Positions 9,001-12,000 of a stretch of 64,000 nt of DNA are shown one piece after another. The DNA is from Escherichia phage PA27, in sequence record KP682380.1. One strand, 5' to 3'. The stretch's first letter is position 1. Each line of letters begins with the position of its first letter. The position numbers were made by a program.

Positions 9001-12000
9001 GCTGGTTTGCGTTTGCATTGTAAGACCACTCGTGATGGGGTTGGCCTGTGTAGTTTGTCGGAGCTAATCGCCTCCTGACTTTGCAGGTTTGCGCGACGAG
9101 CTCTACGGCGAGAAGCTGCGGTGCCTTTAAATTCTGTTTTTCTGGACATAGATTCCTCCCGAATAAACTTTGGCGATGCAATCTCGAAGCTCCTCCTGAG
9201 ACGGTTGCTTCGGCATTGCATCCCACAGCTTATGTGGTTGGGTGATCTGGCTTTTCAGCCACGTAGTCGAGAGTCGACGTTGTTTAAAGAGCCTGCCAGT
9301 CTGTTCCATTTGGCTTCCAGCGTCCTGCTGATGGTTAAATAGTACGATATGTACTTCACTTGGTCAATACAATTTGTTCTAAAACGGGGCGTTTTTTTAC
9401 AACGCTTTGTATTTAATAGTATTGTTTTTTAGCGTGGGTGTATTGCCTCGGCGATGTAAGGAGAGATCAGAATTGCGTTGTTTAGTGAGTTGTATCTATT
9501 TATTTTCCAATAAATACAATTGGTTATGTGTTTTTTTGGGCGAGAGGAAAAGAAAACCCGGCATGGAGGCCGGGTTGATGATTAGCGGTGTGGCCTTGAG
9601 CGATAATGCTCACACACATGTTCAAGATTTCCATGCCTTATCCGTTCATAGGCATTCACATGAACTTCTCGATCGAATTGGTCATTCAAATTGTATGTAG
9701 ACATCTGTGTTTTCTCATATTGGCGGCAGCCCTACAACCGCTTGAAAAAATGTACCAGACGCGCTAAGGTTACATCGCAAATATTGTGTACCTTAACAAG
9801 GGCTCCTTTTGGAGGCTCTGGTTAAACAGCATCAATGTCGGACTGGGGAGTTGGACATTGTGCTGAATGCTTTTGCATTATTGAGGCCGAACGTAAACCT
9901 TCAGAATTGAAGAGATGCGTTCGGCTTCTTCGTTTGTGATATCGTTAGGAATGCCTTTAATCGTTACTGTAACCCCTGATTCAGGTCGAAGAACTACTGG
10001 AAGATCATAGGTATGAAGTGCATTAGCCTTGCCTTCGACTTTTGTTGGTTCGCCAGTCAAATCTTTTTCCTCACTGGATTCTTTGTCAATCGGAGTGTAT
10101 GGGATTTCTTCACCAGACTGGAAAGCTACAAACTTTTTGATTGCACTTTCCATGCGGCTTTTATATGCAGTAATGCTGCTGTCGCTAGGCTTCGGCTCAG
10201 TTGCGTTGATGTATCGCTCGGCAAGCTCATTCACATCAAGCTGAGTAACATCACCCATTTCCTCTTCTTGGACTACCGTTAAGAGGCGAGCGGATGAGTT
10301 TTTTAAATTTCGAGCGGTGGCCTCCTTCATTATGTTCAGCGACATAAGCTCTTCAAGGAAGTCCTTGAATGCCTGCACGCTAACGTTTGACTTTGCCATT
10401 TGCTCTCTCTCTAAGTTATTGACTCAGATCGAGTTTATCCAGGAATTGATTTGCATGCAAGACTCAAGTCTTGAGAATTTCCGTTCAAGATCCACTCTCA
10501 ATAAAAAAGGCCGCACCTCTGCGACCTTTCATCTCCTAAATCTCTTTTCTCTTACCTAAAGAAACAGCAGGCTGGGTCAGCCCTAACAACTTCAAGTGCA
10601 TCGGTCAGAGAAAGCTCCGTGCTATACAGGTGTTATTTCATATCTTTTTGCATCCAATAAATTTTCCATCTGTCCAGAGAGCGGATGCACTTGATTCTTG
10701 TTGATGGCAGGACGTTTTTTCACCTGCCTCACCCTGCCATACAGGACGCTGCTCACCGATATCTATCGTCCGGTCATTGATGTTATAGACAATATCCAGA
10801 TCATTACGGATATACTCAGATGGCCTTATGCTTTCAATGAATAGATGAACTTCTTTTTGACCGCTTGATACTCATGGCCATTAAACTCCATCTATCCTCT
10901 TTACCCAAACGTCTCTTCAGGCCATTGGCTGGCGATAACTTTCCCCACAACGGAACAACTCTCATTGCATGGGATCATTGGATATTGCGGGTTTAGTGGT
11001 TGTAGAAACACCTGACCGCTATCCCTGATCAGTTTCTTGAAGGTAAATTCATCACCACCAAGTCTGGCTATGCAGAAATCGCCGGGCTCAACAGCTTGCT
11101 CAGGGTCAACCAGAATTAACATCCCGTCAGGAAAACTAGGTTTGGAACCTGTTGGTGCGGTCATTGAGTTACCTTCAACCTCAAGCCAGAATGCAGAGTC
11201 ACTGGCTTTTTTGGTTGTGCTTACCAATCTCTCCGCATCACCTTTGGTAAAGGTTCTGAGTTCTGGAGAGAACATCCCAGCCTGAACATGAGAAAAAACA
11301 GGGTACTCATATTGTTTTTTAACTGGGGCCGATGAGTATTCGCCAACAGGTGAAAATGTCCCGTCGTGGTTGAATGATATGTTATCAATACCAAGGTATT
11401 TAAACACCACACCAATATCACTAAGAGATGGATGACGAGATCCGCGCAACCAGTGTCCAATTCCACCCTGCGTCATACCTAGCTCTTCGGCTAACTTCTC
11501 TTGAGTTATGCCGAGCTCTTTCATTCTGGATCTAGCCAGTTCATACCATTTCATTTTCATGTCCTTATTATTACGCTCTGTACTGGAACCATCCATGCAC
11601 AATGTGTATTTTTACTTGTATTTGAGAAGTACATATTGTATTTTTTTATTCGTGGTTACTATGGAGGGCATATGAGCAACCTACGAAAATATCGAGAGTC
11701 ACTGAATATCTCTCAAACAACACTTGCTAAGGCAGTTGGATGCACACAGGGAGCTATCGGACATTGGGAATCTGGTCGTCGCTTCCCAGACCTTAAAACA
11801 TGCCGTGCTCTTGTTGCGTGTCTAAACAAGTTAGGCGCAAAAGTAAGTCTTGATGACGTGTTCCCGCCGGAGCACAAAGCCGCTTAATAAGCGGAGCCGC
11901 TCTTTGTAACAACGGACATTCGTCCTACGTCGCTGAAAAGCGAGTCCCAAGATATCTGACCAACTAAGGCCATATGCGTTTCCACGCATACCTTTCAACT

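What the first reader, a model, noticed from the sequence alone, without database searches (positions are those of the whole stretch)
9541..10900. Self-contained moron of unknown function between cI and pL
A 173-aa acidic ORF (9878..10399, minus strand) sits where lambda carries rexAB and where lysogen-expressed exclusion genes are usually found. It looks like an independent transcription unit: upstream of it the cI transcript appears to be closed by a hairpin plus U-tract (10501..10529), followed by two perfect palindromes (TTGCATGCAA and CAAGACTCAAGTCTTG, 10451..10473) next to promoter-like hexamers. Downstream there is an unlisted 40-codon His/Arg-rich ORF (9582..9704, MSTYNLNDQFDREVHVNAYERIRHGNLEHVCEHYRSRPHR) and then a strong terminator (9555..9576) just before pL. 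I recognise no motif in either protein. From memory, 933W carries the stk kinase at about this position, so this cargo appears to differ.
Basis: partly seen in the sequence, partly recalled or inferred. Interest (0 to 1): 0.75.

Follow-up and report, generated by a model that had tools for sequence, protein, structure and literature searches.

The report
Two-gene cargo cassette beside Stx-phage repressor
Between the repressor gene and the early leftward promoter of this Shiga-toxin phage lies a swappable two-gene cassette of unknown function, whose main protein (ECs1184) has the DNA-binding "core-binding" fold of integrases without the enzyme part and was reported as impossible to delete from the prophage.

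Summary
The window is the Stx2a prophage Sp5 (VT2-Sakai type). The 173-aa acidic ORF (9878..10399, minus strand) is ECs1184, or Sp5 ORF23, and every record calls it hypothetical.

The unit is bounded by two intrinsic-terminator hairpins. Homology to Salmonella prophages starts at one hairpin and stops at the other. The same cassette sits next to repressors only 19-21% identical to Sp5 cI, so it is exchangeable cargo.

- 10555..10891 is a decayed DUF3024 gene (PADLOC candidate PDC-S43).
- The upstream hairpin is a junction found unchanged in 118 viral contigs that carry many different cargos.
- The 40-aa ORF is a real, conserved partner gene (phrog_21154).
- ECs1184 has an integrase core-binding-like four-helix domain, a disordered linker and a small beta-beta-alpha domain. 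It belongs to an unannotated family of more than 600 clusters.
- Published work could not delete the gene, and detected the protein in uninduced cells.

Function is unresolved. My best reading is a non-catalytic DNA-binding accessory protein that acts in exclusion or prophage protection. A toxin-antitoxin-like pair is the main rival. The gene is known but uncharacterised; interest is moderate.

The parts
10901..11596 (-). cI repressor (context; upstream neighbour of the cassette)
   Evidence: Peptidase_S24 E 1e-28 plus HTH_3. Annotated as cI in related phage records.
10555..10891 (-). Decayed DUF3024 gene (PADLOC candidate PDC-S43; PHROG 3467), with two 1-bp deletions and one in-frame stop
10500..10530 (-). 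Intrinsic-terminator hairpin plus U-tract closing the cI (plus DUF3024) transcript; conserved junction element and 5' boundary of the cassette
   Evidence: Free energy -15.9 kcal/mol, z -4.5. The core GGTCGCAGArrTGCGGC is invariant in Sp5, Salmonella, Serratia, Proteus, SH2026Stx1 and 933W. It is exact in 118 IMG/VR contigs with diverse flanks.
10458..10473 (.). 7+2+7 inverted repeat CAAGACT-CA-AGTCTTG, just upstream of and touching the predicted -35; possible operator
   Evidence: Present in the sequence and identical in Salmonella. The half-site AGTCTTG recurs upstream of the gene in Proteus and Serratia in other arrangements. No second copy exists in the phage genome.
10432..10460 (-). Predicted promoter of ECs1184 (-35 TTGCAT, 17 nt, -10 TAAACT), overlapping the palindrome TTGCATGCAA (10451..10460)
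   Evidence: My reading of the alignments. The same geometry appears in Salmonella (TTGCAT/TAAACT), Proteus (TTGCAA/TAGAAT), Serratia (TTGACT/AAAAAT) and SH2026Stx1 (TTGATT/TAGTAT). It falls below the threshold of the scan. No transcription start site is known.
9878..10399 (-). ECs1184 / Sp5 ORF23 / VT2-Sakai orf22. The 173-aa product has a core-binding-like four-helix domain (about 8-94), a disordered acidic linker (about 102-127) and a beta-beta-alpha domain (130-170).
9826..9880 (-). Two stem-loops starting at the stop codon of ECs1184 (no U-tract); possible partial terminator or 3' stabiliser
   Evidence: Free energy -20 kcal/mol, z -6.1. SH2026Stx1 has a canonical terminator at the same place. 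The loop at 9840..9853 is inverted in Salmonella.
9582..9704 (-). Conserved 40-aa partner gene (phrog_21154), core motif VxVxxYxRIRxGxLEHVxxHxRSxP
   Evidence: PHROG E 5e-8. Against Salmonella there are 3 non-synonymous and 6 synonymous changes. A 57%-identical homologue follows the 40%-identical ECs1184 homologue in SH2026Stx1, while the spacer between them is not conserved. The ORF follows the family gene in 32 of 46 loci and never follows other cargos.
9545..9576 (-). Strong intrinsic terminator; 3' boundary of the cassette, about 140 nt upstream of the oL operators (9340..9414)
   Evidence: Called by the scan. Free energy -14.3 kcal/mol, z -4.6. Homology to Salmonella ends here. Operator positions are taken from AP005153.

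Best explanation
The stretch from about 10530 to 9545 (minus strand) is an exchangeable two-gene accessory cassette (a 'moron'). It is inserted at the junction terminator that ends the cI transcript, in the cI-N cargo hotspot of lambdoid phages.

Its order is: a weak sigma-70-type promoter preceded by an inverted repeat, then ECs1184, then stem-loops, then a 40-aa gene, then a strong terminator that insulates pL/N.

ECs1184 is made in the lysogen. It is a non-catalytic protein built from an integrase-type core-binding (CB) DNA-binding domain, a flexible linker and a small beta-beta-alpha domain.

I infer that it works by binding nucleic acid rather than by catalysis. It probably binds its own upstream repeat (autoregulation) and DNA of competing or resident phage. 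On that reading it serves the lysogen as an exclusion or prophage-protective factor, together with the small partner protein.

- **Shown:** anatomy, modularity, fold, conservation of the gene pair, independence from immunity type.
- **From the literature:** the protein is present in uninduced cells, and the gene could not be deleted.
- **Inferred:** the promoter, DNA binding, autoregulation and the biological role.
For: **Identity and position**
- The region is 100% identical to Sp5-type Stx phages. The gene lies between cI and N.

**Modularity**
- Identity to Salmonella prophages rises from about 35% to over 90% at the hairpin, and falls back to about 28% just past the downstream terminator, after dropping to 64-66% across it.
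- Partner cI proteins are 19-21% identical to Sp5 cI, except Proteus at 56%.
- The hairpin is exact in 118 viral contigs. Only 28 of them have this gene downstream. Other cargos include P63C-domain proteins, ParA-like ATPases and SocA/Panacea.
- 933W has the same hairpin followed by RuvC-like and stk genes.
- Homologues in Proteus, Serratia and Salmonella always lie between cI and N.

**Fold**
- Sub-threshold Phage_int_SAM_1 hits occur in 11 of 52 members.
- Most family members are basic with a basic linker, as expected for nucleic-acid binders.

**Partner gene**

**Expression**
- ECs1184 was detected by TRAPP mass spectrometry in cells grown without mitomycin (FDR 0.065). The significantly enriched set in that experiment included cI and other DNA binders (PMC7618764).

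**Hotspot precedent**
- rexAB and bstA occupy this slot (PMC8585504).
Against: - No promoter reaches the scan threshold, and no transcription start or transcript data were available.
- The Sp5 subfamily is acidic (pI 4.9, linker charge -5), unlike most of the family, which sits uneasily with direct DNA binding.
- The upstream repeat has no second copy in the phage, and part of its conservation is explained by the -35 hexamer.
- The protein matches no PADLOC model and has no effector domain.
- The reported inability to delete the gene (PMC5155283) is not what one expects of a pure defence gene.
- The PNK assay found no strong RNA binding. DNA binding has never been tested.
Confidence: 0.5

Rival explanations
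1. The cassette is a toxin-antitoxin-like or addiction pair. ECs1184 (acidic, with a DNA-binding N-domain, a disordered linker and a small C-domain, as in type II antitoxins) restrains a harmful activity. That activity is either the 40-aa Cys/His-containing partner or read-through from its own promoter into N and kil. Removing ECs1184 alone would then kill the lysogen. Such pairs often double as abortive-infection systems.
For: - An in-frame deletion of ORF23 could not be obtained by sacB allelic exchange, while 43 other mutants were made (PMC5155283).
- The gene pair is kept together at three levels of divergence.
- Proteus and Serratia cassettes have different small Cys-rich ORFs in the same place.
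- The gene points towards pL, N and kil, with only one terminator in between.
Against: - The two genes are 173 nt apart. They are separated by stem-loops in Sp5 and by a canonical terminator in SH2026Stx1, unlike typical co-transcribed pairs.
- The small protein has about zero net charge, is hydrophilic, and is unlike known toxins. It has no Pfam or PADLOC hit.
- Most of the 648 family clusters look like solitary genes.
- The failure to delete could be technical: the paper does not say at which step it failed, and flanks carrying pL-N-kil may be hard to clone.
Confidence: 0.2
2. ECs1184 is a transcription factor for lysogenic conversion. It binds host or prophage promoters through the CB-like domain and changes bacterial physiology, with no role in phage exclusion.
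For: - It has a DNA-binding fold and is expressed without induction.
- An inverted repeat lies at its own promoter.
Against: - No second copy of the repeat exists in the 64-kb window. Host targets were not searched.
- The cassette moves between E. coli, Salmonella, Proteus and Serratia, which argues against a host-specific regulon.
- MrpR and SroF keep the whole recombinase fold, whereas this protein keeps only the CB domain.
Confidence: 0.12
3. ECs1184 is an integral part of the Sp5 immunity circuit. It would be a second repressor or a cI helper needed to keep this particular prophage silent, as the authors of the deletion study suggested.
For: [quoted passage not shown]
- It lies next to cI.
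Against: - A nearly identical cassette accompanies repressors only 19-21% identical to Sp5 cI, with unrelated flanks.
- 933W-type Stx phages lack the gene and form lysogens.
- The gene is separated from cI by a terminator and a dead gene.
Confidence: 0.06
4. ECs1184 is an RNA-binding protein acting after transcription.
For: It was near-significantly enriched in the RNA-associated proteome (FDR 0.065).
Against: - The PNK labelling signal was similar to the sfGFP negative control.
- TRAPP also recovered many DNA-binding proteins, including cI.
- Rfam found no structured RNA in the locus, and folding z-scores of the spacer are not significant.
Confidence: 0.04

Closest known systems
rexAB of phage lambda; bstA of Salmonella prophage BTP1; stk and neighbouring genes of phage 933W (cargo of the cI-N slot)
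   Same: They occupy the same slot, between the repressor gene and pL/N. This region is recognised as a hotspot of mosaic diversity with lysogen-expressed exclusion genes (PMC8585504; 933W layout). 933W even shares the cI-DUF3024-hairpin arrangement.
   Different: There is no sequence or domain relationship to RexA/B, BstA (KilA-N) or Stk kinase. BstA is described as presumably sharing the repressor's promoter. Here a terminator precedes the gene and a separate promoter is predicted. No exclusion phenotype is known for ECs1184.
Core-binding (SAM-like) domain of tyrosine recombinases (lambda Int, XerC/D, IntI, Cre; Pfam Phage_int_SAM_1)
   Different: Sequence identity is only 7-16%. There is no catalytic domain, because the protein ends at residue 173. 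It carries a C-terminal beta-beta-alpha domain that matches no known family. It cannot be a recombinase.
Integrase-derived phage regulators MrpR (SPbeta) and SroF (phi3T)
   Different: They are about 320 residues long and keep the whole recombinase fold, and they serve as master repressors. ECs1184 keeps only the CB domain and coexists with a classical cI.
Morons as defined for HK97/HK022-type lambdoid phages (an extra gene with its own promoter and terminator between conserved neighbours; definition from my own knowledge of the literature)
   Same: The cassette is flanked by terminators, present in some relatives and replaced by other cargo in others. Its boundaries coincide with mosaic junctions.
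   Different: It holds two genes rather than one. The promoter is only predicted.

Membership tests
Moron / accessory cassette of lambdoid prophages | Present in some related phages and absent or replaced in others, with sharp mosaic boundaries | tested here: met
   Homology to Salmonella prophages starts and stops at the two terminators. At least 20 alternative downstream contents follow the same hairpin. 933W carries other cargo.
Moron / accessory cassette of lambdoid prophages | Own terminator downstream | tested here: met
   9555..9576 on the minus strand is called by the scan. Free energy -14.3 kcal/mol, z -4.6.
Moron / accessory cassette of lambdoid prophages | Own promoter | tested here: inconclusive
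   No site reaches the scan threshold. A 7-of-12 match keeps its position in five lineages and reaches 9 of 12 in Proteus and Serratia. No transcription start data were available.
Moron / accessory cassette of lambdoid prophages | Expressed from the repressed prophage | not testable with these tools
   Literature only: the native protein was detected by mass spectrometry in EHEC Sakai grown without an inducer (PMC7618764).
Tyrosine recombinase / phage integrase | Core-binding domain fold | tested here: met
Tyrosine recombinase / phage integrase | Catalytic domain with the R-H-R-Y active site | tested here: not met
   The protein has 173 residues. After the CB domain come only a disordered linker and a 45-residue beta-beta-alpha domain. 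No Phage_integrase hit was found.
Known anti-phage defence systems (PADLOC-DB 2.0) | Match to a model of a known or candidate defence protein | tested here: not met
   There are no hits for ECs1184, the 40-aa ORF or the 44-aa ORF at E up to 1. Only the neighbouring dead gene's intact orthologue matches, to PDC-S43.
Type II toxin-antitoxin pair | Adjacent, co-transcribed toxin gene of a recognised family | tested here: inconclusive
   A conserved small partner gene exists. It belongs to no toxin family and is separated from ECs1184 by stem-loops or a terminator.
Type II toxin-antitoxin pair | Loss of the antitoxin alone is lethal | not testable with these tools
   Literature hint only: ORF23 could not be deleted (PMC5155283). 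The cause was not established.
DUF3024 / PDC-S43 (for 10555..10891) | Sequence homology over the full length | tested here: met
   tblastn finds 81-89% identity in three frame segments. The intact orthologue hits Pfam at E 1e-30 and PADLOC at E 2e-41.
DUF3024 / PDC-S43 (for 10555..10891) | Intact reading frame | tested here: not met
   There are two 1-bp deletions and a TGG-to-TAA stop relative to the intact gene.

The most novel reading that the evidence does not exclude
The cassette is a new kind of two-component, toxin-antitoxin-like abortive-infection or addiction module. A catalytically dead integrase core-binding protein senses phage DNA or recombination and replication intermediates. 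It thereby releases or controls a 40-aa Cys/His-containing effector (phrog_21154). This would explain three things at once: the hotspot location, the strict pairing of the two genes, and the reported lethality of deleting ECs1184 alone.
Probability: 0.15. Interest if true: 0.75.

Novelty: new member of a known kind. Interest (0 to 1): 0.5.

Why it matters
Sp5-type Stx2a prophages are the main toxin carriers of E. coli O157:H7. This cassette is identical in about 230 of 5,426 complete E. coli genomes.

ECs1184 was one of only two Sp5 genes, among those targeted, that could not be deleted. Yet it has no annotation. Assigning it an integrase core-binding fold, a conserved partner gene and a clear modular boundary turns 'hypothetical protein' into specific experiments: DNA binding, autoregulation, pair deletion and a phage challenge panel.

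The family has more than 600 sequence clusters and no Pfam, NCBIfam or PADLOC model, so a function found here would annotate many genomes.

The invariant junction hairpin also gives a practical handle for cataloguing cargo of the cI-N hotspot, much as was done for the P2/P4 hotspots.

Tried and rejected
- **Rfam scan of 8800..12000, permissive:** only a chance-level GadY match at E 0.85.
- **Folding of the 9705..9850 spacer on both strands:** z -0.9 and -0.2, so no evidence for a structured sRNA. Its high identity to Salmonella is explained by the whole cassette being 91-100% identical outside the linker and the hairpin-inversion window 9826-9875.
- **PDB sequence searches with two profiles:** nothing significant.
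- **Foldseek against PDB:** no hit below E 0.3. A COMMD-like protein ranks first but is not significant.
- **Pfam and NCBIfam on 52 family members:** only sub-threshold integrase or Xer hits.
- **PADLOC:** nothing for the cassette proteins.
- **Search with the C-terminal domain alone:** only short fragments and no fusions to other domains.
- **Other copies of the inverted repeat in the phage:** none.
- **Cluster look-up of distant members:** no names beyond 'hypothetical', and one Yersinia record.
- **Accession-number literature search:** only false positives. A search for DUF3024 found no papers.
- **Cassette-promoter artefact as the cause of non-deletability:** rejected as the sole explanation, because the method was markerless sacB allelic exchange. 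A cloning or toxicity artefact from pL-N-kil flanks remains possible.
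Full report
**Identity of the window and of the ORF**

The stretch 9300..11000 is 100% identical to more than 40 Stx-converting phages of E. coli O157:H7, including VT2-Sakai, the Morioka Stx1 and Stx2 phages and the PA series. Its coordinates equal those of phage PA4, which is 62,708 bp, the published length of Sp5.

The 173-aa ORF at 9878..10399 (minus strand) is annotated 'hypothetical protein' in every record. 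It lies between cI (10901..11596; Peptidase_S24 plus HTH) and N (8877..9221).

Supplementary Table S1 of Mondal et al. 2016 (PMC5155283) lists a 173-aa hypothetical ORF23 (ECs1184) between N (ORF22) and cI (ORF24). So this ORF is ECs1184.

**Check of the observation**

- The upstream hairpin folds at -15.9 kcal/mol (z -4.5). The downstream terminator folds at -14.3 kcal/mol (z -4.6) and is also called by the pattern scan.
- The protein is acidic, with pI 4.9.
- The two 'perfect palindromes' need qualification. TTGCATGCAA is perfect, but 49 such 10-mers occur in the window, and it is not conserved in Salmonella.
- CAAGACTCAAGTCTTG is a 7+7 inverted repeat around a non-palindromic CA. Five such repeats occur in the window, and this one is conserved in Salmonella.
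- No promoter passes the scan threshold here.
- From the alignments I read a weak candidate: -35 TTGCAT at 10460..10455, a 17-nt spacer, and -10 TAAACT at 10437..10432.
- Its position relative to a conserved leader (CGATC...CAATAACTTAGAGAG) is kept in Salmonella, Proteus (TTGCAA/TAGAAT), Serratia (TTGACT/AAAAAT) and SH2026Stx1.

**What lies between cI and the hairpin**

The intact protein matches Pfam DUF3024 (E 1e-30) and the PADLOC defence candidate PDC-S43 (E 2e-41). An intact copy follows cI in Proteus prophages, in phage SH2026Stx1 and in 933W.

So the cI transcript once carried a second gene. That gene is dead in all Sp5-type phages. The cassette proper begins at the hairpin.

**Modularity**

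- Against Salmonella prophages, identity is about 35% upstream of 10517.
- It is 77-100% from the hairpin to 10106.
- It is 45-72% across the linker and first strand of the C-domain (10105..9926).
- It is 91-100% from 9925 to 9601, apart from 80-82% in 9826-9875 where the hairpin loop is inverted.
- It falls to 64-66% across the terminator (9600..9530) and to about 28% below 9530.
- The repressors next to the cassette in Salmonella, Serratia, SH2026Stx1 and the chicken E. coli strain are only 19-21% identical to Sp5 cI. The Proteus repressor is 56% identical.
- In every enterobacterial homologue examined, the gene sits between a Peptidase_S24 repressor and an N-like gene, while the replication and recombination modules differ.

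**The hairpin as a junction**

The core GGTCGCAGArrTGCGGC is unchanged in all these phages and in 933W. This holds even where the neighbouring genes have diverged to 40% identity.

An exact search found the hairpin in 118 IMG/VR contigs. Only 28 of them have the ECs1184 family downstream. The flanks fall into at least 29 upstream and at least 20 downstream sequence clusters.

Where I looked, the upstream gene was usually a repressor. The downstream cargo included P63C-domain proteins, ParA-like ATPases and a SocA/Panacea protein. A few matches lie in unrelated phages and may be coincidental.

The literature already describes the cI-N interval as a mosaic hotspot that holds rexAB and bstA (PMC8585504).

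**The small ORF**

The 40-aa ORF (9582..9704) matches phrog_21154. Against Salmonella it shows 3 non-synonymous and 6 synonymous differences.

In SH2026Stx1 a 177-aa homologue of ECs1184 (40% identity) is followed by a 44-aa homologue of the small protein (57% identity). The spacer between them is not conserved. A third, more diverged pair occurs in L042.

Over all loci held, the small gene follows the family gene in 32 of 46 cases. It is always on the same strand at a near-constant distance of 111-163 nt between the reading frames, and it never follows other cargos.

A related peptide stands alone near an HTH/ImmA-like pair in a Ralstonia P2-like phage. Proteus and Serratia cassettes lack it, but each has a different small Cys-rich ORF in the same place.

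Two stem-loops (-20 kcal/mol, z -6.1) start at the ECs1184 stop codon. SH2026Stx1 has a canonical terminator there. The two genes may therefore be expressed partly independently.

**The protein**

- ECs1184 belongs to PHROG 2602, of unknown function.
- An exhaustive profile search found 648 clusters at 50% identity (243 below E 1e-10). All but one of the 150 listed are 157-238 residues long, and most match the profile end to end.
- There is no Pfam, NCBIfam or PADLOC model for the family.
- With a deeper alignment, AlphaFold2 gives mean pLDDT 78.6. It predicts four helices (8-94, pLDDT 81-93 over residues 11-90), a disordered segment (102-127) and a beta-hairpin plus helix (130-170, pLDDT 86-89).
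- Sub-threshold Phage_int_SAM_1 matches over the same residues occur in 11 of 52 family members.
- There is no catalytic domain, so the protein cannot recombine DNA.
- The C-domain (consensus PIPLRxGxxVxIxGLPxDLTxxEAxRI) matches nothing known. I found it only attached to this N-domain.
- Most family members are basic with a basic linker (39 of 52). The enterobacterial prophage subfamily is acidic.
- Distant members occur as solitary genes in phage-like, chromosomal and defence-island-like surroundings (DarT/Macro, TIR, NYN).

**Experimental hints from the literature**

Mondal et al. made 43 markerless in-frame deletion mutants of Sp5 in K-12 by sacB allelic exchange. They could not obtain deletions of ORF23 (ECs1184) or ORF21 (ECs1180, window 8567..8818). 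They suggested that both genes are needed for stable lysogeny.

A 2025 study detected native ECs1184 in the RNA-associated proteome of EHEC Sakai grown without inducer (FDR 0.065). A PNK assay gave a signal no stronger than the negative control. The significantly enriched set in the same experiment included cI and other DNA-binding proteins.

**Interpretation**

That this is an independent accessory cassette is well supported.

I think a role inside the Sp5 immunity circuit is unlikely. The same cassette serves unrelated repressors, and 933W-type phages do without it.

The fold and the family's usual basic charge point to nucleic-acid binding without catalysis. The hotspot location, the neighbouring defence candidate and some distant contexts point to exclusion or prophage protection. 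I hold that reading at about 0.5.

The non-deletability is better explained by a toxin-antitoxin-like relation with the partner gene, or by loss of autoregulation that lets transcription run into N and kil. I hold that at about 0.2. The two readings are compatible if the pair is an abortive-infection module, which is the most novel reading at about 0.15. Other readings are given as rivals.

**Novelty**

The gene is known and has a published phenotype hint, but it has no assigned fold, family or function. I found no paper that mentions the gene beyond the two cited. It is a new, uncharacterised member of a known kind: lysogen-expressed cargo of the cI-N hotspot.

Noticed in passing
window 10555..10891 (-): A dead copy of a DUF3024 gene (PADLOC defence candidate PDC-S43) directly follows cI. 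It has two frameshifts and one stop. It is intact in 933W, SH2026Stx1, Proteus prophages and one chicken E. coli strain. PGAP annotates a 53-aa 'hypothetical protein' inside it instead of a pseudogene.
   Followed up: yes
window 10500..10530 (-); loci L023-L140; L141 4632..4648: The terminator hairpin AGGTCGCAGAnnTGCGGCCTTTT is sequence-invariant, in stem and loop and with no covariation. It occurs in 118 viral contigs between at least 29 kinds of upstream and at least 20 kinds of downstream sequence. It behaves like a universal junction or boundary sequence for cargo exchange after the repressor operon. Why the sequence itself, and not just the structure, is conserved is unexplained.
   Followed up: partly
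window 9833..9860: The 14-nt loop of the stem-loop just after the ECs1184 stop codon is inverted in Salmonella prophages relative to Sp5 (GGACTGGGGAGTTG against its reverse complement, with one mismatch). This is a hairpin-mediated micro-inversion.
   Followed up: partly
window 8567..8818 (-): ECs1180 / Sp5 ORF21 (83 aa, PHROG 2471, no Pfam hit), just downstream of N, is the only other Sp5 gene reported as non-deletable. Among the unknown genes targeted, both non-deletable genes lie upstream of kil in the leftward direction.
   Followed up: partly
window 9926..10105 (-), residues about 98-158 of ECs1184: The linker and first strand of the C-domain are only 45-72% identical to Salmonella, while the rest of the cassette is mostly 91-100% identical. 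Two allelic types exist: the Sp5/Cronobacter type and the Salmonella/Yersinia/Proteus type. The linker is acidic in this subfamily but basic in most of the wider family.
   Followed up: partly
window 10353..10368: A second 7+2+7 inverted repeat (TCAAGGA-AG-TCCTTGA) lies inside the start of the ECs1184 coding region, 105 bp centre to centre from the upstream repeat. Its half-sites differ from the upstream repeat, and it encodes conserved residues, so its meaning is unclear.
   Followed up: no
window about 10425..10431 and equivalent positions in L004, L008, L010, L021: A GATC (Dam) site sits just downstream of the predicted -10 in Sp5, Salmonella, Proteus and Serratia; in SH2026Stx1 the nearest GATC sites lie upstream, one within the predicted spacer.
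   Followed up: no
window about 9500..9530: The inverted repeat CCAAT-AAATACA-ATTGG lies between the cassette terminator and the oL operators. The flanking sequence is conserved in SH2026Stx1 despite a different repressor.
   Followed up: no
L002 (NC_000902) 4102..4797 against window 10901..11596: The VT2-Sakai reference record splits cI into two CDS (a 169-aa CDS plus a 'c1 repressor protein fragment'). The window and the other records have one intact ORF of 231-233 aa.
   Followed up: no
L030, L037, L025, L044, L029 (downstream of the hairpin): Alternative cargos at the same junction include P63C-domain proteins (312-361 aa), ParA-like ATPases (339-349 aa) and a SocA/Panacea protein. None matches a PADLOC model at a convincing level.
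   Followed up: partly
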